A stretch of 55,490 bases of DNA from a virus (lineage: Duplodnaviria; Heunggongvirae; Uroviricota; Caudoviricetes). The stretch lies in the IMG/VR virus record IMGVR_UViG_2872185964_000005; one strand, written 5' to 3'. The translations under genes and the position numbers were made by a program. Below, piece by piece: positions 3,275 through 43,070 of the stretch (positions are counted from its first letter, which is position 1; each line of letters opens with the position of its first letter). Below the pieces are notes generated by a model, which saw only the letters and a program-made list of their open reading frames with translations, ran no database searches and was not told the origin of the DNA.

Positions 3275-4027
3275 TTACCCTGCAGCGCCCGCTTCAGTAA
3301 CGGTGACTTCAGCCACTGCGGCGAACTGACCATTTCCGCTCACCACAGGGATCTGCACCTTACCTGTCGCCACGCCGTTTACCGTAATTGTCATATCTTT
3401 CACACTAATGGTGGCTTTCGACGGATCGGCGGAAACCGCTCTGAACGTCTTGTCGGTTGCACTTTCCGGCTCAAAAGAAACCGTCAGGGTGGTTGTTTTC
3501 CCTTTTGCCACCGTACCGGATGTCGGCGTCACCTTAATCGCACTGACCGGCGTAATTTTGCTGCGTTCTTCCGCTACAGAAGGTTTACCCACGTTAGTGA
3601 CTTTCACCGTGCGGGTGATCACTTCTTTCGCCGTCACGGCCTTACCGATACTGCTGACCCAGCCACGAAACACATCCACCGTGCCATTCGGAAAACGGAT
3701 TTTATAGGCCCGGACATCGCCGCTTTCAAACCAGCCTATAAGCCCTTTCTGGCCTTCCTCTCCCGGTTTCCAGGCCAGCGTAAAACTGGTATCACCTGCA
3801 GATTTCTGCCCCTGCCCGGTCGCGGTCCAGTCCGCGTCTTCATCATCCAGGTAGTTATCATCGTAGGATTCTGCCGTCATCTCGCCCGGCGTCAGATCCT
3901 TCACCTTAGCCAGTCGCTGCCAGTCATCGTCTGACAACGGGTTTGCATAAGCATCACCCTTGCCGTTGTAAACCCACAGAGTGGTACCGGCACCTTTTAC
4001 CGGCTCAAGGGGATTTGGTGTTGCCAT
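3275..4027 (-). CDS. V: Major tail protein gpV with C-terminal Ig-like domain
   Basis: 250-aa ORF ...[39 protein letters not shown]... matches lambda V. Confidence 0.9.
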
Positions 4028-4034
4028 ATCGTCC

Positions 4035-4429
4035 TCACATCTCGTATGTAATGGAATAAGTCAGATCTGCAGAACTCCATAACGCCATATCGTCATCACG
4101 ACGATACTCATAGCCCTGCGTAACCATCGTGGTAATCAGTCCTGCCAGTGCCGGGATCGCGGTCATCGCCGGGTAAATCCGGCTTTCCATCCACTGATCA
4201 AGCTCTGAATCCGGTACCTGTGCCGGTAAAAACACCTCAATATGCAGCGTGGCCCGCCAGGTATCTGCATCCAGCTCTTCACCGGTATACTCTGCATCCG
4301 TCAGATAAACCGCGATCGCAGGAAAATCCTCTTCGTCAAAAACAACGGGCGACCATCAAACAGCGTCGCCCCGTGTTCATGCTGCTCGAGCGCATCCAGC
4401 ACTGCGGCACGAATGTCAGTGTGTTTCAT
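4035..4429 (-). CDS. U: Tail terminator gpU, apparent frameshift at a C-run near 4330
   Basis: N-terminal [17 protein letters not shown]... and C-terminal [22 protein letters not shown]...ITYEM match lambda U in two frames; ATGA overlap with Z. Confidence 0.8.
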
Positions 4430-4959
4430 CGTTTTATTGCAATCCTCAGTTGTTGTTTCAGCGCGTATGCCAGTTCTTTAGGCAGGCGTTCACGCCGGAT
4501 ACGGTCAACATTCTCATCAAATGCCTGTTTCAGTGGGGCCGCCATCGGGATTTTCACCACATCAATGGGGTAACGGTTTTTCCCGGCCACACGCTGCATG
4601 ACATGCCAGCGACCATTTTTTAATCGCTGAATAAATGCCCGCTGATACCGATGCTGACCGGCTTTAAGTATGCTGTTCGGGCGACGCCCCAGCATCCTGA
4701 TCCCCAGCTTAATCACAGGGAGATCACCGCGGTTAACGATAATTTTGGCATTCGGATTTCTGACCGTCGCCCGTTTCAGTCTGGACCGTTCCTTAACCAG
4801 TTTCCGGCGAACCTTTGTCTCCCGGGCAACCTGTGATGAAGACTGATTAATCGCCGTTGTGGCCACGCGGTTAATGGCCATTGCTGAAGCCGCCGGAATG
4901 GCGTTTTTACGAACCCGGCTCAGATTGTCAATCGCCTGATCAAGCCCTTTTATCGCCAT
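4426..4959 (-). CDS. Z: Tail completion protein gpZ
   Basis: 177-aa ORF MAIKGLDQAIDNLSRVRKNAIPAASAMAINRVA... matches lambda Z. Confidence 0.9.
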   Translation of the reverse strand: MAIKGLDQAIDNLSRVRKNAIPAASAMAINRVATTAINQSSSQVARETKVRRKLVKERSRLKRATVRNPNAKIIVNRGDLPVIKLGIRMLGRRPNSILKAGQHRYQRAFIQRLKNGRWHVMQRVAGKNRYPIDVVKIPMAAPLKQAFDENVDRIRRERLPKELAYALKQQLRIAIKR

Positions 4960-4974
4960 AATTTCACCCTGCGT

Positions 4975-5328
4975 TTATCGTCGCCGGTTAACTGCGGGTG
5001 GTTGACCACGGTTGAGCCAGAGATAACAGCTGCCCCCGTCATCCGGAGAAACACGATCCACCCAGAATATCTCACCATTAATGGTCAGCGTGTCACCACG
5101 CCGCACGGCACGAACCGTATCCGTCCGCACAAATAATGACGGGCTACTTCCTTCAATACGGACCCCGCCACCGGTAAACCCCAGCGACTCCGGATCATCA
5201 AAAACCCCCTGAACTTCGCTGCCACACTGTGCCCCCGAGGTGAACTGCGCACAGAGCCCCATCACTTCAACGATCGTACTGTCTACCCCGGCGAGGGCAG
5301 CATCAAAGGCATTCTGAAAATCACGCAT
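4975..5328 (-). CDS. FII: Head-tail joining protein gpFII
   Basis: 117-aa ORF ending ...FWVDRVSPDDGGSCYLWLNRGQPPAVNRRR, near-identical to the lambda FII C-terminus. Confidence 0.9.
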   Translation of the reverse strand: MRDFQNAFDAALAGVDSTIVEVMGLCAQFTSGAQCGSEVQGVFDDPESLGFTGGGVRIEGSSPSLFVRTDTVRAVRRGDTLTINGEIFWVDRVSPDDGGSCYLWLNRGQPPAVNRRR

Positions 5329-31735: not shown

Positions 31736-32013
31736 GGAGTTTACTCACATCTGACAAAATCAATATAAACAGCCCTCCGGAGAGGGCTGGAGAGTGGCGC
31801 TATGTGCCATTGCATGGTGCCGGGTGCCTCCCGGTGAATTCAGTACCAGCACCTGAATCCGCGATTATCCCATATACCTACTCGCTGATTGCCCCTCCGC
31901 ACAGGGGATTCACCATGCCAGTTTCTTTTAACAAACTCCCCGCAAACCAGACAACAGTCAACCGCCTGAATTGTGAGACATTTAAAAAAAAGCCCGCAAA
32001 AGCGAGCCAGGGA

Positions 32014-32090
32014 AAATAAGTGTGGCGCGTTCTACTGTATTCGAACCAGTGACCGATTGCTTAGAAGGCAATTGCTCTGTCCGGCTGAGC
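32014..32090 (-). tRNA. tRNA-Arg (anticodon UCU), one acceptor-stem and one T-stem mismatch
   Basis: Cloverleaf readable by eye: D-arm TAGCTCAGCCGGACAGAGCA, anticodon loop CUUCUAA, T-loop TTCGAAT, 3' GCCA. Confidence 0.6.
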
Positions 32091-32099
32091 TAACAACGC

Positions 32100-32189
32100 A
32101 GGATACAGATAATGAACCGCCTTCGGGACCCGAACTCCGCGCAACCAGCTTCGAAGGCTGGCGCTCTTTCCTGATGAGCTAATGGCGGT
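32100..32189 (-). other. tRNA-like sequence (possible degenerate tRNA-Arg, anticodon UCG); T-arm does not fold cleanly
   Basis: D-arm TAGCTCATCAGGAAAGAGC and anticodon arm CCAGC-CUUCGAA-GCUGG are intact, T-stem pairing is poor. Confidence 0.3.
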
Positions 32190-32262
32190 ATGTGATAGTG
32201 GCCCTTGCTGGATTTGAACCAGCGACCTGGCGATTATGAGTCGCTCGCTCTCACCACTGAGC
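32190..32262 (-). tRNA. tRNA with CAU anticodon (Ile2/lysidine type or Met), prophage ileZ-like
   Basis: GGCCCTTTAGCTCAGTGGTGAGAGCGAGCGACTCATAATCGCCAGGTCGCTGGTTCAAATCCAGCAAGGGCCA folds as a canonical cloverleaf. Confidence 0.75.
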
Positions 32263-32320
32263 TAAAGGGCCGGGAGCAGAATAATAATGGTGCGTAATTA
32301 ATTCTGCAATCTCATCCGTT

Positions 32321-33941: not shown

Positions 33942-34762
33942 CTATCGCGTTACCCTCTTTAACTGCCGCTCCGCCCATGCCTCTTCAATGTCAAACCGAA
34001 CCACCAACGTATCGTAAAAGCGTTTCACTGATTTTTTCCACGTATCAAGCGTGATAGCACTCGTCACTTTGCATATGGCATTAAATGCCTCCGTTGATGG
34101 TAGTCTTTCACAGCCACGACCACCACAACGCTGGCAGTCTCTGATAACAGGCATACCACGTTTTACCGACTCTTCACGATGAATGGCGACACCACGCCCA
34201 CGGCAATCCTTACAGGCGGTGGAAACCTCACCCTTTCCGCCACACTCCGGACAGGCAACTTTTACCACCTCCCTGACTTTTTTCCATTCTTCCAGTAAGA
34301 CGGATACACGCCTTTTGTGCACTTTGCCCACACTGGTGGCTTACCATCCGGATACTGGATCTTGTTTGTAAAAACCTCGCTTTCAATAAATTTTTTTCCG
34401 TGACAGCAGGGGCACTGTTTTTTGCTCGCCGCGCTACGGGCATAATCTTCAAACGCATACGAAGCCATAATGCGCATCACTACCGGTTTTATTTCTGCCG
34501 GAAGTTTTCTCAACGCCGCCACACGATCGCACCGACTGAGTGCATAATCTGCCAGTAATTCTGTTGCCCGCGCCCTGTCATTCATACTGATGCCCATTTT
34601 CCCCAGGAACGCAGAAAACCCCATCTCAGCCCGATTCTGTGTCATGCCCTGCGCGGCCATCACATCAGTGATACTCAGCGCATCTTTTGACGTTGAGGCC
34701 GATGCATCGGTCAGGCTAGGGGATTTTGGGGAGTAGTATTTCGGTAAATCTTCCAGTTTCAT
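33942..34762 (-). CDS. Q: Late antiterminator Q (phage 82/21-type zinc-finger Q), apparent frameshift near 34300
   Basis: N-terminal ORF (..LADYALSRCDRVAALRKL..YAFEDYARSAASKKQCPCCHGKK) and C-terminal ORF (CPECGGKGE..CKDCRGRG..CQRCGGRG) overlap in different frames. Confidence 0.75.
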
Positions 34763-40223: not shown

Positions 40224-40418
40224 TCATGGACGCACCTCCACCGTAGTTACGTATTTAACCGGGCTACCTTTCATTGAGATGGTTTCACACATCTCTGCCG
40301 CTTTCAGTTCCGCTGTTTTTCTGGATTTATAGCGACGGTGCCAGACAGATACATCCGTGCGAACTGATACATCGTTTCTGTATTCCGTAGTGGAGATGAT
40401 GATTTCGTAACTAATCAT
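40224..40418 (-). CDS. Hypothetical protein (64 aa)
   Basis: ORF overlapping the stop of the Rha gene by 4 bp. Confidence 0.35.
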   Translation of the reverse strand: MISYEIIISTTEYRNDVSVRTDVSVWHRRYKSRKTAELKAAEMCETISMKGSPVKYVTTVEVRP

Positions 40419-40962
40419 GGGCGAACCTCCTTGTCAGAACCATTCAGCCTGGAATCAACAAGTGCAGCGCCAAAAACAGCATCACCAACACGGTCGTACA
40501 GTTTGCTAGCCAGCGGAGATTCAACGGCCTTAAGCATTGGATAAAGCTGGCTTGTCCAGATTTGATGGATTTCACGCAAATGCAGGTATACGCCTCTGGC
40601 GTTTCGTGCGACAGCTGACATATCAACCGCGTCAGCACCAGATAAATTCTTCTCCATCTGGTTAAAGGCGTTGATGTATGCCTCTTTGAACCGGGCTGCA
40701 CGTTTGCCAGTAAAGCCCATAGCAAGGAACGCGAAGCCATCGCGGGTGATTTGATAGCAAGGTAGTTTGCGGCCTGTGCAATCGGTGTAATCACTGGGCT
40801 GAAAATTCAGCTCAGTGAATTCAACAGAGCACTCAAGCGTCTGGATTTTTTGAATAACGTTTTTGTGCTGCTTGCAGAAATATTCGGCAACGGCCAAAGA
40901 AGAGGTAACAGCCTTCCCATGGATAACATCAATTTTAGGGTGAGTTTGGGTAGGGGTGGTTG
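40415..40962 (-). CDS. rha: Rha-family phage regulatory protein
   Basis: From MATTPTQTHPKIDVIHGKAVTSSLAVAEYF...FTGKRAARFKEAYINAFNQMEK; the upstream in-frame extension crosses a terminator hairpin and is excluded. Confidence 0.7.
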
Positions 40963-41127
40963 CCATAGTGACATCCTCATGTGCGAATTTTGAAAACTCA
41001 CCACATGGGACGCCAATCACAGAGGTGGTGAGACGTACAGGGTTGGCGTAACCGGTCGCACATGACCCCGGCGCATCTTTCGATGCCCCTGCACGCCCCA
41101 CCATAATTTGGATGTGAGGAAACGTGC

Positions 41128-41152
41128 GCAAAAAAACCGCTGAAGCGCGGTT
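41128..41152 (-). terminator. Intrinsic terminator between the two Rha-family genes (tR1-like position)
   Basis: Minus-strand aaccgcgc-uucagc-ggutt stem followed by uuuuuuu. Confidence 0.5.
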
Positions 41153-41371
41153 ATGCGCATGTGCGAATTTCAGGACGCCAATCCCGGCACCCGCTTTATA
41201 AGGTGCGGAGACAGTGTAACGTCCCGAAATTGCAGAATCAATATTTGGTCTTGAAATGATCATATAGCTGCTGATATCTTTAGAACTGTTCTTGGATGTT
41301 TCGGAGCCGTTTTATGCGAAACAGCTCCCCGTTATTGATGTTGAGTGAGCCGGGTTACTCCCGGCTTTTTT

Positions 41372-42079
41372 TCACCGCTGCCAACCAATAACCTGAAATA
41401 ACCCCATTTTCGGGTGATACCAGCGAGTCCCTCGCGGTTCTGCTTCCTCCATAACCCGATAAAAAGCAGCCATAAACGGTTCCACAGCAACAATTGCGCG
41501 ACGTGACAACAATCTGTCCGGCGTCATGAACTCATGGGTGTCTGTAGGAATTTGATAGGCGTTCACCAGATTGCGGCATTTATCATCTGACAAACCGGTT
41601 TTTGCTTTCAGTTGGCGATATCCGGCATAGCCCTCACGAATAGTGCCCTTTTTAATTTGCTCGACTGTTTCAGCAACGTGGCTGACTTTTTCTTCCACCT
41701 GAGTGATCCGTTTCTGTTGGCGAACGGCTTCAAGAGCCATCGCGGCAACCATTTCGATTTCGCTCATTGGCTTACGGATCTGTTCTTCCAGTTCGCGCCA
41801 GCGATCTACCAGGCGAGCTGTGAATTCAGGACAGAGCTGTGCGACGACAATGATGCTGTCGCGCTTACCTCGTTCACCTTCGAATACATACGCGCTAGAA
41901 AATCGGCGAGGCCCAAGTGATTGTTTATTCTCAATTTCCACAGTCTGTGGAAATTGGATGATTCCCTTTTTAGCCAGTGTTTCAATAGTTCTCTTAACAC
42001 TATCTGGTCGGCTTCCCACCAGCTCTGCGATCTCAACGCTGGTCATGGATGCTTTGCCGTTAAAAATTGCGGTGTTCAT
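41372..42079 (-). CDS. Phage regulatory protein, Rha/antirepressor-like N-terminal domain
   Basis: MTSVEIAELVGSRPDSVKRTIETLAKKGII... ; translationally coupled (ATGA) to the upstream cro-like ORF. Confidence 0.55.
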   Translation of the reverse strand: MNTAIFNGKASMTSVEIAELVGSRPDSVKRTIETLAKKGIIQFPQTVEIENKQSLGPRRFSSAYVFEGERGKRDSIIVVAQLCPEFTARLVDRWRELEEQIRKPMSEIEMVAAMALEAVRQQKRITQVEEKVSHVAETVEQIKKGTIREGYAGYRQLKAKTGLSDDKCRNLVNAYQIPTDTHEFMTPDRLLSRRAIVAVEPFMAAFYRVMEEAEPRGTRWYHPKMGLFQVIGWQR

Positions 42080-42303
42080 TGTTGGTCTCCTGTGGGCTTG
42101 TCATCTTCTGTATTCGCTAGCCTTGGGTGTGTATATGGAATGCTCGGATCCAGATGACAAAGAATGGCAACATCCTCCGGAACACCTCGCGTTTTCCACT
42201 TTCCAACACCTTGACTGCCACGAGGCCTTCCTTTCTTTGGGAACCTGCGACCAATAGCGGCATTGGTTTTAAATTGAATTTTTAATATTTCATAAAGGGT
42301 CAT
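42076..42303 (-). CDS. Cro-like first gene of the rightward early operon (assigned by position); contains an AT-hook-like GRPRG motif
   Basis: 75-aa ORF divergent from cI across a 111-bp region with repeated GTATCA-containing sites. Confidence 0.4.
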   Translation of the reverse strand: MTLYEILKIQFKTNAAIGRRFPKKGRPRGSQGVGKWKTRGVPEDVAILCHLDPSIPYTHPRLANTEDDKPTGDQQ

Positions 42304-42414
42304 TCTTTAGTCTCACACCAGATACTTTGTTATTCAACGATGTTAACCGCGGGATTCCAAAGTATCAAGAAATTCTGTTACTTTCGTATCAACAGCCATG
42401 AGAGGAGAAGAAAA
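42304..42414 (+). promoter_or_regulatory. Candidate OR/PRM-PR operator-promoter region
   Basis: Repeated 17-mers tACTTTgtTATtCAAC / tACTTTcgTATCAACa and aagtatcaag between the divergent cI and cro-like genes. Confidence 0.45.
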
Positions 42415-43070
42415 ATGAAGTCTTTAGGTGAACGTCTCATCAACGCACGGCAAAAAGCTGGGTTAACACAAGATGCGTTGGCTAAAAAAGCTGGGATCAC
42501 CAGAGTTGCAATCAGTAAAGCCGAGCAAGGCCTTACAAAAAGTTTCAACGGTGACACCCTTTTTAAAGTTGCAGCTGCACTGCGGTGTTCACCGCAGTGG
42601 CTTCAGAACGGAGATGAAAAAGATAAGCATTGGGAAAATAATGTTAAGAGCTGCCCACAGAGAGACACAGCACACTCTTACCCTGTAATTAACTGGGTTC
42701 AGGCAGGATTATTCGCAACTTCTGGTGATGACTACAACATGTATGATCAGGATAATTGGAGGCATTCTGTAAAATACGCTGGTGAGAGGGGTTCTGGCTG
42801 GAAGTGCACGGAGACTCAATGACTTCGCCCGTAGGAATAACATTTCCTGAAGGAATGTCGATCCTTGTCAACCCAGATAAAGAAGTTTTTTCAGGGTGTT
42901 ACGTCATCGCCAGAAAAAAATCCACCAATGAAGCAACATTCAAAAAATATATTTCTGACATGGGAAAGGCGTTTCTAAAGCCCCTTAATCCACAATATCC
43001 AATCATAGAAATGGACAATGATTGCGAAATAGTAGGTGTTGTGGTTGATGCCAGGTGGGATATTTTCTGA
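42415..43070 (+). CDS. cI: CI-like repressor (N-terminal HTH, C-terminal LexA/S24 autopeptidase domain), apparent frameshift near 42800
   Basis: MKSLGERLINARQKAGLTQDALAKKAGITRVAISKAEQG (HTH_XRE) and GDSMTSPVG...VIARKKSTNEATFKKY (S24 Ser/Lys) in adjacent overlapping frames. Confidence 0.75.

What the first reader, a model, noticed from the sequence alone, without database searches (positions are those of the whole stretch)
40963..41371. 410-bp non-coding spacer with an intrinsic terminator and a repeated 40-bp motif between the two Rha-family genes
The spacer contains a minus-strand hairpin plus U-run (41128-41152), a plus-strand terminator-like hairpin with T7 (about 41347-41375), and two copies of catgtgcgaattt...gacgccaatc (about 40978-41018 and 41158-41184). 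No N-like antiterminator is evident in the window. The region may act like lambda tR1 as a regulated checkpoint in the early-right operon, or encode a small RNA.
Basis: seen in the sequence. Interest (0 to 1): 0.35.

Follow-up and report, generated by a model that had tools for sequence, protein, structure and literature searches.

The report
P4/P1-type RNA immunity cassette (IsrK–C4)
The "spacer" between the two Rha-family genes holds a known kind of phage RNA immunity switch, a small antisense RNA with matching target sites on both sides, so it is an ordinary though unannotated member of a system described in phages P4, P1/P7 and Gifsy-1.

Summary
On the minus strand it carries an IsrK/seqA-like leader RNA (41206..41130) that ends in the minus-strand terminator. 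Next comes a C4/CI-type antisense RNA (41108..41021). Both score above Rfam's curated thresholds. The "repeated 40-bp motif" is the pair of C4 target sites: a1/b1 upstream and a2/b2 downstream, with b2 touching the ribosome-binding site of the Rha gene. Across 83 related loci the C4 loops and both target pairs change together, at fixed offsets. The region also lies in a 282-codon frame continuous with the Rha gene. That frame has no stop codon in 45 distinct relatives and matches Pfam Phage_ASH, as in the nested eta/kil genes of phage P4. The likely mechanism follows P4 and P1: an internal constitutive promoter makes the immunity RNA, which blocks Rha translation, while translation from upstream early transcripts overrides the block. 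The plus-strand terminator probably ends a separate antisense RNA of about 86 nt with a conserved promoter. A lambda tR1/N-type checkpoint is not supported. Verdict: new member of a known kind, low interest.

The parts
41130..41206 (-). IsrK / seqA-like leader RNA. It has a 5' hairpin, a second hairpin that presents a1 in its loop, b1 just downstream, and an intrinsic terminator at the 3' end.
   Evidence: Rfam RF01394 isrK, 62.3 bits (cut-off 50), E 2e-12, full model. Hairpin 1 has compensatory changes in 6 of 6 pairs across 19 relatives. P1, Gifsy-1 and P4 carry the same element.
41128..41152 (-). Intrinsic terminator at the 3' end of the IsrK-like RNA: AACCGCG-CTTC-AGCGGTT followed by a T-run.
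   Evidence: Terminator scan. The same position holds a terminator in 68 of 92 distinct relatives, with compensatory stem variants such as AACCGCG, ACACGCC, AGACGCG and ACCACGCC.
41175..41181 (-). a1 target site (UUGGCGU), in the loop of IsrK hairpin 2.
   Evidence: Exact complement of C4 a'. It corresponds in position to the a1 site annotated in P1.
41158..41166 (-). b1 target site (UCGCACAUG).
   Evidence: Exact complement of the C4 b' loop. Duplex energy -15.8 kcal/mol.
41021..41108 (-). C4 / CI-type antisense RNA. The predicted mature form is about 41102..41024, by alignment to the annotated 77-nt P1 c4.
   Evidence: Rfam RF01695, 75.1 bits (cut-off 45), E 2.5e-14, full model. The consensus structure has 7 pairs with compensatory changes in 24 relatives.
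41056..41065 (-). b' recognition sequence (UCAUGUGCGA) in the loop of the second C4 hairpin.
   Evidence: 10/10 complementary to b2 and 9/9 to b1.
41043..41049 (-). a' recognition sequence (ACGCCAA) in the single-stranded stretch after C4 hairpin 2.
   Evidence: Complementary to a1 and a2. P1 has CUGUCAA here, matching its own UUGACAG sites.
41010..41016 (-). a2 target site (UUGGCGU), immediately 3' of C4.
   Evidence: It corresponds in position to the a2 site annotated in P1.
40974..40986 (-). b2 target site (UCGCACAUGA, 40986..40977), overlapping the Shine-Dalgarno GAGGA (40978..40974) of the short Rha ORF.
   Evidence: Duplex energy -16.6 kcal/mol. The P1 annotation for its b2 reads 'repression of icd ant translation'.
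41213..41241 (-). Predicted constitutive sigma-70 promoter of the IsrK-C4 transcript: -35 TTGATT (41241..41236), 17-nt spacer, -10 TACACT (41218..41213), with a predicted start near 41206.
   Evidence: It aligns hexamer for hexamer with the promoter P1c4/P51b annotated in P1 (TTGACC-17-TATAGT). The -10 TAnAnT is conserved in 19 relatives. At 8/12 matches it fell below the scan threshold. No LexA box and no word shared with the operator region.
40415..41263 (-). Long ORF of 282 codons (Ash-Rha, the counterpart of P4 eta). It starts upstream of the internal promoter and spans the promoter, IsrK, the terminator, C4 and a2/b2, in frame with the Rha gene.
   Evidence: ORF list. Pfam Phage_ASH 53.8 bits at residues 16-110, plus Phage_pRha. 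In 45 distinct relatives this frame has 0 stops in 400 distinct triplets, against 19/396 and 23/380 in the other frames, and frame is preserved by every indel (all 3 nt, plus one compensating 1+2 pair). RefSeq annotates it as a CDS.
40415..40966 (-). Nested short ORF of 183 aa: a Rha-domain, Bro-network protein and putative antirepressor or regulator. It is the counterpart of P4 kil and is the gene controlled by C4.
   Evidence: Pfam Phage_pRha 113 bits. PHROG transcriptional regulator / anti-repressor families. Its N-terminus MATTPTQTHPKI resembles P4 Kil MATTLTPSHPEF.
41251..41280 (+). Plus-strand promoter-like element (TTGAAA, 18 nt, TG-n-TATCTT), back to back with the IsrK promoter.
   Evidence: Promoter scan, 9/12 with a TG extension. 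Both hexamers and the TG are kept in three sequence variants whose spacer differs at about half its positions.
41287..41372 (+). Candidate antisense small RNA of about 86 nt (OOP-like by position). It has a conserved 5' segment GUUCUUGGAU, a small internal hairpin and an intrinsic terminator (stem 41347-41367, T7 41366-41372).
   Evidence: Terminator scan. Fold -29.3 kcal/mol, z = -3.05. Across 14 distinct sequences the internal hairpin pairs covary (CG/UA/UG, GC/UA, UG/CG). Two substitutions are tolerated only as G.U pairs in the plus-strand RNA. Two single changes within variant A break a pair.
41372..42079 (-). Upstream gene (Roi / Ant-like DNA-binding protein, 235 aa). Its stop codon abuts the plus-strand terminator.
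   Evidence: Among the 72 contigs found by the exact hairpin, every case examined has roi on one side and an IsrK-C4 module on the other.

Best explanation
The region is a P4/P1-type IsrK-C4 RNA immunity cassette nested in the 5' part of a Bro-network (Ash-Rha) gene. It sits in the early-right operon of a lambdoid E. coli prophage.

Shown here:
- On the minus strand there is an IsrK/seqA-like leader with a1/b1 and an intrinsic terminator. A C4/CI-type RNA follows, with recognition sequences a'/b'. Then come a2/b2, with b2 overlapping the Shine-Dalgarno of the 183-aa Rha ORF.
- The recognition sequences and all four target sites co-vary across relatives.
- A 282-codon frame running through all of this is kept free of stop codons.

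Inferred from homologues:
- In the lysogen, an internal constitutive promoter (start near 41206) makes mostly the short IsrK-like RNA.
- Read-through transcripts yield C4, which is cut out by RNase P and 3' trimming.
- C4 pairs with a2/b2 and blocks Rha translation, which provokes premature Rho-dependent termination. The promoter that makes the immunity RNA therefore expresses neither Rha nor the downstream replication genes.
- a1/b1, in cis or on free IsrK, compete for C4 or assist termination.
- After induction or infection, transcripts entering from the early promoter carry the upstream ATG (41263). Ribosomes translating the long frame then melt the terminator, C4 and the target duplexes, making those transcripts insensitive to the RNA immunity. 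This is the behaviour described for P4 eta.

The plus-strand hairpin belongs to a separate, divergently transcribed antisense RNA of about 86 nt. Its function is unknown.
For: - Rfam hits above curated thresholds over full models: C4 75.1/45 and isrK 62.3/50.
- The same two-RNA architecture is found in P1, with annotated promoter, a1, b1, c4, a2 and b2. It is also found in Gifsy-1 and P4.
- Across 83 distinct loci there are at least 13 a-types and 20 b-types. In nearly every locus the exact complement of the C4 loop sequences occurs at fixed offsets upstream and downstream.
- Compensatory changes support the C4 stems, the IsrK hairpin and the terminator.
- b2 overlaps the SD.
- In the long frame, 0 of 400 distinct triplets are stops, against 19 and 23 in the other frames. 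All indels preserve frame (3 nt, or one 1+2 pair). The feature is absent from P1-type modules.
- The long frame matches Pfam Phage_ASH, as does the old P4 'cI' ORF.
- The P4 eta/kil arrangement and the Kil-like N-terminus are seen directly.
- The P4 mechanism is summarised in PMC10111431. Lambdoid 'IsrK-C4 immunity systems' are named in PMC3632133. For Gifsy-1, terminator read-through, an ~80-nt processed RNA and IsrK pairing with the 'orf45' region are reported in PMC4825925.
Against: - Nothing was measured in this phage: no transcript ends, no processing, no repression.
- The internal promoter is only 8/12 to consensus and was missed by the scan.
- The long ORF's ATG at 41263 has no clear Shine-Dalgarno and is 108 nt from the upstream gene. 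It is therefore not translationally coupled as in P4 or in loci L006/L007.
- The cargo is neither P1 Ant, nor Gifsy-1 AnrP (no similarity), nor demonstrably an antirepressor.
- The published roles of the upstream sites disagree. In P4, seqA aids termination. In Gifsy-1, IsrK activates the downstream gene. Which applies here is unknown.
Confidence: 0.85

Rival explanations
1. A lambda tR1-like checkpoint. The minus-strand terminator would be a regulated stop in the early-right operon that an antiterminator (N-like or Q-like) or another factor overcomes. The repeats would be protein or nut-type sites.
For: The terminator is real and lies on the path from the cro/roi genes to the replication genes, all on the minus strand.
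Against: - No boxA-like sequence between 33961 and 49442.
- The terminator is the conserved 3' end of a curated sRNA family. It is found in the same position in Gifsy-1 and P4 (with a terminator-like hairpin in P1), none of which has been tied to N/nut antitermination.
- The repeats are exact complements of the RNA between them and co-vary with it.
Confidence: 0.04
2. Purely protein-coding. On this reading the 297 bp are only the N-terminal 'Ash' domain of a 282-aa Ash-Rha protein, and the RNA-family hits and repeats are by-products of the coding sequence.
For: The frame is open with no stops in 45 relatives and frame-preserving indels. Pfam Phage_ASH scores 53.8 bits. RefSeq and phage records annotate one CDS.
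Against: - Stem positions change by compensatory pairs while the encoded peptide changes radically, for example ASKDA / PTSVG / QPQGW.
- Loop-target complementarity is kept in triplicate across at least 20 specificities.
- P1-type homologues carry 2-5 stops in this frame and in the others.
- The P1 c4 product is annotated as an RNA. The P4 cI ORF of the same Pfam family overlaps the CI RNA.
- The region contains a promoter and a terminator homologous to mapped ones.
Confidence: 0.03
3. For the plus-strand hairpin only. It would not end an sRNA. Instead it would be a structural element of the minus-strand message, such as a 3' stabiliser or processing site after roi, or an insulator against stray antisense transcription. 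The apparent plus-strand promoter would be conserved because it overlaps the start region of the long ORF.
For: - The -35 hexamer overlaps codons 3-5 of the long ORF, and the -10 lies in its 5' leader. Conservation could therefore reflect minus-strand function.
- Two microvariants break a pair in the internal hairpin.
- No transcript data exist.
- Only three sequence variants are known, all next to roi.
Against: - On the minus strand the hairpin is preceded by A7 and not followed by U's. Only the plus strand reads as an intrinsic terminator.
- Two substitutions, GAAGU to GAGGU and GCCGGG to GCUGGG, keep pairing only in the plus-strand RNA.
- The hexamers and the TG are kept while the 18-nt spacer diverges.
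Confidence: 0.35

Closest known systems
Phage P4 immunity region (PLE promoter, seqA, CI RNA, seqC, nested kil/eta genes)
   Same: - IsrK-like (seqA) and C4-like (CI) RNAs sit in the same order and score above Rfam thresholds.
- A long ORF starts upstream of the internal promoter and spans both RNAs, in frame with a nested short ORF whose RBS follows the downstream target.
- The translations of both belong to Pfam Phage_ASH.
- The short ORFs begin alike: MATTLTPSHPEF in P4 and MATTPTQTHPKI here.
- In both, the module lies upstream of the replication genes.
   Different: - The host element is a lambdoid prophage, not a satellite.
- The nested gene is a 183-aa Rha-domain protein, not the 65-aa Kil.
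- The long ORF is not translationally coupled to the upstream gene in this window (108-nt gap).
- The upstream promoter is presumably the cI-controlled early promoter rather than P4 PLL.
- The recognition sequences differ.
Phage P1/P7 immI operon (c4 antisense RNA, icd, ant1/ant2)
   Same: - The promoter hexamers, a1, b1, terminator-like hairpin, C4, a2 and b2 are collinear with the annotated P1 features.
- b2 lies at the RBS of the first downstream ORF.
- Specificity is set by a'/b', which is the basis of P1/P7 heteroimmunity.
   Different: - There is no icd gene.
- The cargo has a Rha domain, not the KilAC/ANT domain of P1 Ant.
- P1-type modules have stop codons in all frames, so they have no eta-like long ORF.
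- P1 immI is a free-standing operon, not part of an early operon.
Salmonella Gifsy-1 isrK-orf45-anrP locus (Hershko-Shalev et al. 2016, PMC4825925)
   Same: - It has the same a-type (UUGGCGU), an IsrK with a Rho-independent terminator, and a C4 (69 bits) exactly where 'orf45' was placed. b2 lies on the SD of the downstream gene.
- Partial terminator read-through and an ~80-nt processed RNA were reported.
   Different: - AnrP is an ORF6N-domain protein with no similarity to the Rha protein here.
- In Gifsy-1 the frame from the C4 AUG ends at the anrP start (stop-start overlap) instead of being fused to the downstream gene.
- The locus lies after the Q gene, not in the early operon.
- The b specificity differs.
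Lambda OOP antisense RNA (comparison for the plus-strand unit only)
   Same: It is a short RNA transcribed against the early-right operon. It lies between the gene in the cII position and the replication genes, has its own sigma-70-type promoter, and has an intrinsic terminator ending at the 3' end of the upstream gene.
   Different: - It overlaps the upstream coding sequence by only 3 nt.
- Only weak similarity to lambda's oop region appears, near the terminator, in one MAFFT alignment.
- No experimental evidence exists.
Lambda tR1 / nutR N-antitermination
   Same: There is a terminator inside the early-right operon, upstream of the replication genes.
   Different: tR1 is Rho-dependent and sits directly after cro with nutR. 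Here the terminator is intrinsic, is part of an sRNA gene, has no boxA nearby, and is controlled by RNA pairing and translation rather than by a nut site.

Membership tests
C4 antisense RNA (Rfam RF01695; P1/P7 c4, P4 CI) | Matches the covariance model above the curated threshold over its full length | tested here: met
   75.1 bits against a cut-off of 45, model positions 1-87/87, E 2.5e-14.
C4 antisense RNA (Rfam RF01695; P1/P7 c4, P4 CI) | Long closing stem enclosing two hairpins, supported by covariation | tested here: met
   26 predicted pairs, 7 of them with compensatory changes, in 24 relatives including this one.
C4 antisense RNA (Rfam RF01695; P1/P7 c4, P4 CI) | Two exposed sequences (a', b') complementary to sites a2/b2 just downstream, at the RBS of the next ORF | tested here: met
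   a' 41049..41043 pairs with a2 41016..41010. b' 41065..41056 pairs with b2 40986..40977, which overlaps SD 40978..40974.
C4 antisense RNA (Rfam RF01695; P1/P7 c4, P4 CI) | The same complementary sites (a1/b1) in the upstream leader | tested here: met
   a1 at 41181..41175 and b1 at 41166..41158. Loops and sites co-vary in 83 loci.
C4 antisense RNA (Rfam RF01695; P1/P7 c4, P4 CI) | Excised from a longer transcript by RNase P into a stable RNA of about 77 nt that represses in trans | not testable with these tools
   The only support is the invariant CACCACC at the 3' side and alignment to the annotated P1 c4 ends. RNase P processing of C4 is cited in PMC2190699.
IsrK / seqA leader RNA (Rfam RF01394) | Matches the covariance model above the curated threshold and ends in a Rho-independent terminator | tested here: met
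   62.3 bits against a cut-off of 50. Terminator at 41152..41128.
IsrK / seqA leader RNA (Rfam RF01394) | Own promoter directly upstream | tested here: inconclusive
   TTGATT-17-TACACT aligns with the annotated P1 P1c4 promoter, and the -10 is conserved. It is only 8/12 to consensus and unmapped here.
P4-type nested eta/kil gene around the immunity RNAs | Long ORF that starts upstream of the internal promoter, spans both RNAs, and is in frame with a nested short ORF | tested here: met
   ORF 41263..40415 with a nested start at 40966. There are 0/400 stops in frame against 19/396 and 23/380 in the others, and frame-preserving indels. P4 has the same layout.
P4-type nested eta/kil gene around the immunity RNAs | Translation of the RNA region belongs to Pfam Phage_ASH | tested here: met
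   53.8 bits here. The P4 'cI' ORF scores 59.7 bits.
P4-type nested eta/kil gene around the immunity RNAs | Long ORF translationally coupled to the upstream gene | tested here: not met
   There is a 108-nt gap between the roi stop (41372) and ATG 41263, with no clear SD. Coupling by start/stop overlap is seen in relatives L006/L007 and in P4.
P4-type nested eta/kil gene around the immunity RNAs | Immunity-specific Rho-dependent termination downstream, suppressed by translation of the long ORF | not testable with these tools
   Known for P4 through the summary in PMC10111431. The original paper, PMC94026, is not held.
P1 immI operon (c4-icd-ant) | icd ORF between C4 and ant, and Ant with a KilAC/ANT domain | tested here: not met
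   The next ORF starts 54 nt after C4 and is a Phage_pRha protein. P1 Ant1 is PF03374 ANT. icd-type cargo forms a separate cluster of loci.
Lambda tR1/nutR N-antitermination checkpoint | nut site (boxA/boxB) upstream of the terminator | tested here: not met
   No match to CGCTCTTTA with up to 1 mismatch between 33961 and 49442. The window-wide count equals chance. boxB was not searched.
Lambda OOP-type antisense RNA (plus-strand unit) | Promoter and intrinsic terminator about 80-90 nt apart, antisense to the early operon, ending at the 3' end of the upstream gene | tested here: met
   TTGAAA-18-TG-n-TATCTT at 41251-41280 and a terminator at 41347-41372. These are conserved in three variants. 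This is a prediction only.
Lambda OOP-type antisense RNA (plus-strand unit) | Sequence homology to lambda oop | tested here: inconclusive
   Only terminator-proximal similarity appears in one MAFFT alignment. No Rfam family matched above threshold; the best was sroD at 24.5 bits against 50.

The most novel reading that the evidence does not exclude
In this group of lambdoid prophages the IsrK-C4 cassette would be more than a lock on an antirepressor. It lies between the early promoter and the O/P-type replication genes, in a phage with no detectable nut site. It could therefore be the phage's early-operon checkpoint. Passage would require translation of the stop-free Ash-Rha frame through the terminator and C4. 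The conserved, divergently transcribed plus-strand RNA of about 86 nt (OOP-like, undescribed) would tune that translation by pairing with the roi / long-ORF junction. The many independently assorting a and b sequences would then act as an RNA-level heteroimmunity code among E. coli prophages.
Probability: 0.25. Interest if true: 0.5.

Novelty: new member of a known kind. Interest (0 to 1): 0.25.

Why it matters
- **Annotation.** Similar sequence occurs in 1170 of 5426 complete E. coli genomes, and related modules occur in hundreds of phage records, many of them Shiga-toxin phages. Where I checked, RefSeq and phage records annotate the region only as a long 'Rha family' or hypothetical CDS, with no RNA gene. 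Recognising the cassette corrects that annotation. It also shows that Pfam Phage_ASH is the translation of an RNA gene region.
- **Prophage biology.** These prophages appear to carry a second, RNA-based immunity layer with sequence-defined specificity. That bears on prophage induction, superinfection and crosstalk between co-resident prophages, and hence on toxin-phage biology.
- **Limits.** None of this is new in kind. The mechanism was worked out in P4, P1/P7 and Gifsy-1.

Tried and rejected
- **Mosaic boundary sequence.** I considered that the repeat is a recombination 'boundary sequence'. Rejected, because both blocks are complements of the RNA between them and co-vary with it.
- **IsrK = C4 leader, and 'orf45' = C4, as new links.** I considered these novel. 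They are not: Barquist 2013 names the IsrK-C4 system in P4, P1, P7, N15 and lambdoid prophages. The IsrK paper itself discusses seqA/CI and STnc1160.
- **Stop-free frame as a new feature.** I considered this novel. It is the P4 eta/kil arrangement.
- **Regulation of the internal promoter.** There is no LexA box (CTG-N10-CAG) in 40900-41450. No word of 9 nt or more is shared with the cro/cI operator region.
- **boxA search.** Nothing near the early region.
- **'Different right flank' of the plus-strand hairpin.** This appeared in some contigs but was an artefact of a T7/T8 length difference. The flank is roi in the case examined.
- **More variants of the plus-strand RNA.** The genome-contig scan with GTTCTTGGAT-N45-75-CCGGCTTTTTT returned 22 hits, all in unrelated phyla, so they are chance matches. 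The GTTGAGCGAGCCGGGT scan of viral contigs added only microvariants plus unrelated hits.
- **Trans targets of the plus-strand RNA.** The conserved 5' segment has no complement in the window beyond its own locus.
- **Classical papers.** PMC196329, PMC41593, PMC312442 and PMC94026 are not held. Statements about RNase P processing and Rho-dependent termination rest on secondary sources and on my own knowledge.
- **Rfam sub-threshold hits.** sroD, PrrF, SorX and the miRNA families are terminator-driven or chance matches.
Full report
**Observation**

All genes around the finding are on the minus strand. In order they are a cro-like ORF (42303..42076), a 235-aa Roi/Ant-like gene (42079..41372), the "spacer", and a Rha-domain gene with ATG at 40966. 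Small ORFs and O/DnaC-type replication genes follow.

- A minus-strand intrinsic terminator, with stem 41152..41135 and a T-run to 41128.
- A plus-strand terminator, with stem 41347-41367 and T7 at 41366-41372.
- A two-block direct repeat: 40973-40990 / 41153-41170 and 41008-41018 / 41173-41183.

The same repeat search showed that both blocks are complementary to two segments lying between them, 41056-41065 and 41040-41049.

**What it is**

An Rfam scan placed two curated RNA families on the minus strand, each over its full model and above its gathering score:
- C4 antisense RNA at 41108..41021, 75.1 bits against a cut-off of 45.
- isrK at 41206..41130, 62.3 bits against a cut-off of 50. It ends in the minus-strand terminator.

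The richly annotated P1 record has the same order of parts: promoter P1c4 (P51b), a1, b1, a terminator-like hairpin, c4, a2, b2, and then the first ORF. The P1 leader also matches isrK, at 35.1 bits.

Aligning the two sequences by eye gives these correspondences:

| Feature | Window | P1 |
|---|---|---|
| -35 | TTGATT (41241..41236) | TTGACC |
| -10 | TACACT (41218..41213), same 17-nt spacing | TATAGT |
| a sites | UUGGCGU | UUGACAG |
| a' in C4 | ACGCCAA | CUGUCAA |
| b sites | UCGCACAUG(A) | GUUAGUG |
| b' loop in C4 | UCAUGUGCGA | CACUAAC |

Site b2 (40986..40977) overlaps the Shine-Dalgarno GAGGA (40978..40974) of the Rha ORF.

**Comparative test**

A pattern scan of viral contigs with the conserved 5' arm of C4 gave 120 loci, of which 83 are distinct. 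They carry at least 13 a-types and at least 20 b-types. In nearly every locus the exact complement of the C4 loop sequences lies at fixed offsets: a1 about -73 to -83, b1 about -57 to -69, a2 about +86 to +94, and b2 about +115 to +125. The a and b types assort independently.

Structural support is as follows:
- The C4 fold has 7 pairs with compensatory changes.
- The first IsrK hairpin has 6 of 6 such pairs.
- The IsrK terminator keeps its position in 68 of 92 distinct contexts, with compensatory stem variants.

In this window, none of 5000 shuffles gave both complements. About 1% of shuffles reached the duplex energies.

Gifsy-1 and P4 carry the same pair of RNAs. In Gifsy-1 the C4 hit (69 bits) lies exactly where the IsrK paper placed "orf45". 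That paper reports conserved nucleotides but variable amino acids there, and an ~80-nt processed RNA, STnc1160.

**The region is not simply non-coding**

The frame of the Rha gene is open back to an ATG at 41263. That ATG lies upstream of the internal promoter. RefSeq and the PhiR49_2 record annotate this 282-codon ORF as a single CDS, with no RNA gene.

In the lambdoid, Rha-type subfamily (45 distinct sequences covering many a/b types) this frame contains 0 stops among 400 distinct position-triplet combinations. The other two frames contain 19/396 and 23/380. Every indel is 3 nt, apart from one compensating 1+2 pair. P1-type modules have stops in all three frames.

The encoded peptide varies radically where the RNA stems covary. 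What appears to be selected is an open frame, not a particular protein sequence. In some relatives the ORF is about 380 codons long and its ATG overlaps the stop of the upstream cII-like gene.

The translated extension matches Pfam Phage_ASH at 53.8 bits. The historical P4 "cI" ORF belongs to the same family and overlaps the CI RNA. P4's long ORF starts at the stop codon of the upstream ORF88 and spans isrK and C4. Its nested short ORF begins MATTLTPSHPEF, compared with MATTPTQTHPKI here.

This is the known eta/kil arrangement, as summarised in a 2023 paper citing Forti et al. 1999:
- A constitutive promoter sits inside eta.
- Its transcript is terminated through CI/seqA interactions and yields CI.
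- Kil is the truncated form of Eta.
- Full-length Eta is translated only from an upstream promoter.
- Translation of Eta prevents termination.

Barquist et al. 2013 had already named an "IsrK-C4 immunity system" in P4, P1, P7, N15 and lambdoid prophages.

**Mechanism**

Shown here are the anatomy, the complementarity, the covariation and the open frame.

Inferred by homology:
- The internal promoter is active in the lysogen.
- Most transcripts stop at 41128.
- Read-through transcripts yield C4, processed by RNase P. C4 is a cited RNase P substrate.
- C4 pairs with a2/b2, blocks Rha translation, and causes premature termination.
- a1/b1 modulate this, through termination help in P4 or titration and activation in Gifsy-1.
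- Early-promoter transcripts translated from ATG 41263 escape the control.

No LexA box or shared operator word is present near the internal promoter, which is consistent with constitutive expression.

The cargo is a Rha-domain, Bro-network protein grouped with regulators and anti-repressors. Its function is untested. Across the family the cargo varies: Rha-type in 84 loci, P1 Icd in 20, plus Bro-N/P22_AR_C and ORF6N types.

**The plus-strand hairpin**

This hairpin reads as a terminator only on the plus strand. On the minus strand it is preceded by A7 and not followed by U's. In 72 viral contigs found by the exact hairpin, every case examined has roi on one side and an IsrK-C4 module on the other, and the flanking ~180 bp are nearly identical.

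Searching by the Roi protein recovered two further sequence variants of the roi-IsrK intergenic region. All three variants share:
- A plus-strand -35 TTGAAA.
- An 18-nt spacer that differs at about half its positions.
- TG-n-TATCTT or TG-n-TATTTT.
- A conserved GTTCTTGGAT.
- A small hairpin whose pairs covary.
- The terminator stem, with a variable loop.

Two substitutions are compatible only with G.U pairs in the plus-strand RNA. Two microvariants break a pair. The predicted 91-nt fold has z = -3.05.

I read this as a candidate antisense RNA of about 86 nt, divergent from the IsrK promoter and OOP-like by position. My confidence is about 0.5-0.6. Similarity to lambda's oop region is weak, and no further variants were found.

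**Comparison and verdict**

The locus passes the tested defining features of the C4 and IsrK families and of the P4-type nested gene. The exception is translational coupling to the upstream gene. It fails the P1 immI cargo features (icd and an ANT-domain Ant) and the nut feature of a lambda tR1 checkpoint.

It is a new, uncharacterised member of a known kind. It is very common: similar sequence occurs in 1170 of 5426 complete E. coli genomes. It is generally hidden under a CDS annotation. A specialist would not be surprised. The modest open points are the plus-strand RNA, whether the cassette gates replication-gene expression in a lambdoid early operon, and the size of the a/b specificity repertoire.

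Noticed in passing
window 39209, 39549, 40177, 42788, 43105; also 38642: Compared with the near-identical prophage of E. coli CE10 (99.1% over 4.85 kb), the window has five single-base deletions, all in homopolymer runs, plus a 21-bp indel. The deletions split the cI repressor (42340..42822 and 42804..43070) and the O-like replication gene into fragments. The pattern suggests sequencing or assembly errors rather than real pseudogenes.
   Followed up: partly
window 40415-41263 (-); L186 1966-2814; L002 2516-3364: RefSeq (PGAP) and the PhiR49_2 record annotate the whole IsrK-C4 region as part of one 282-aa CDS and list no RNA gene. Pfam Phage_ASH (PF10554) is in effect the conceptual translation of the IsrK/C4 (seqA/CI) RNA region, including the old P4 'cI gene product' ORF.
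   Followed up: yes
L010 3562-3750 and 4218-4406: One viral contig carries two complete IsrK-C4 modules in tandem. Each lies inside its own ORF (3505..4167 and 4164..5015), and the second ORF's start overlaps the first ORF's stop.
   Followed up: no
L003-L122 (viral contigs): The a and b recognition sequences of C4 assort independently. For example, a = UUGGCGU occurs with at least 8 different b sequences. Homology among contigs that share the roi-side flank breaks at about the a1 site. This suggests recombination that shuffles immunity specificities.
   Followed up: partly
L185 (Gifsy-1) 34131-34214 (-): The 'orf45' of the published isrK-orf45-anrP locus coincides with a full-length C4 match (69 bits). 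Its first AUG is the AUG in the 5' arm of C4. By alignment to the annotated P1 c4 ends, RNase P processing would split that AUG.
   Followed up: partly
window 18091-18207, 24624-24740, 44750-44866 (-): There are three identical ALIL pseudoknot hits (116.2 bits), the frameshift signal of IS3-family insertion sequences. One lies next to the transposase ORF 43934..44824, just beyond the cI side of the immunity region.
   Followed up: no
window 31759-31947 (-) and 32026-32271 (-): An STnc100 sRNA hit (118.4 bits) and a cluster of three tRNA genes lie in the late-regulatory part of the prophage.
   Followed up: no
window 41236-41256: The -35 hexamers of the predicted IsrK promoter (minus strand) and of the predicted plus-strand promoter are back to back, 9 bp apart. 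The two may therefore compete for or share RNA polymerase binding.
   Followed up: no
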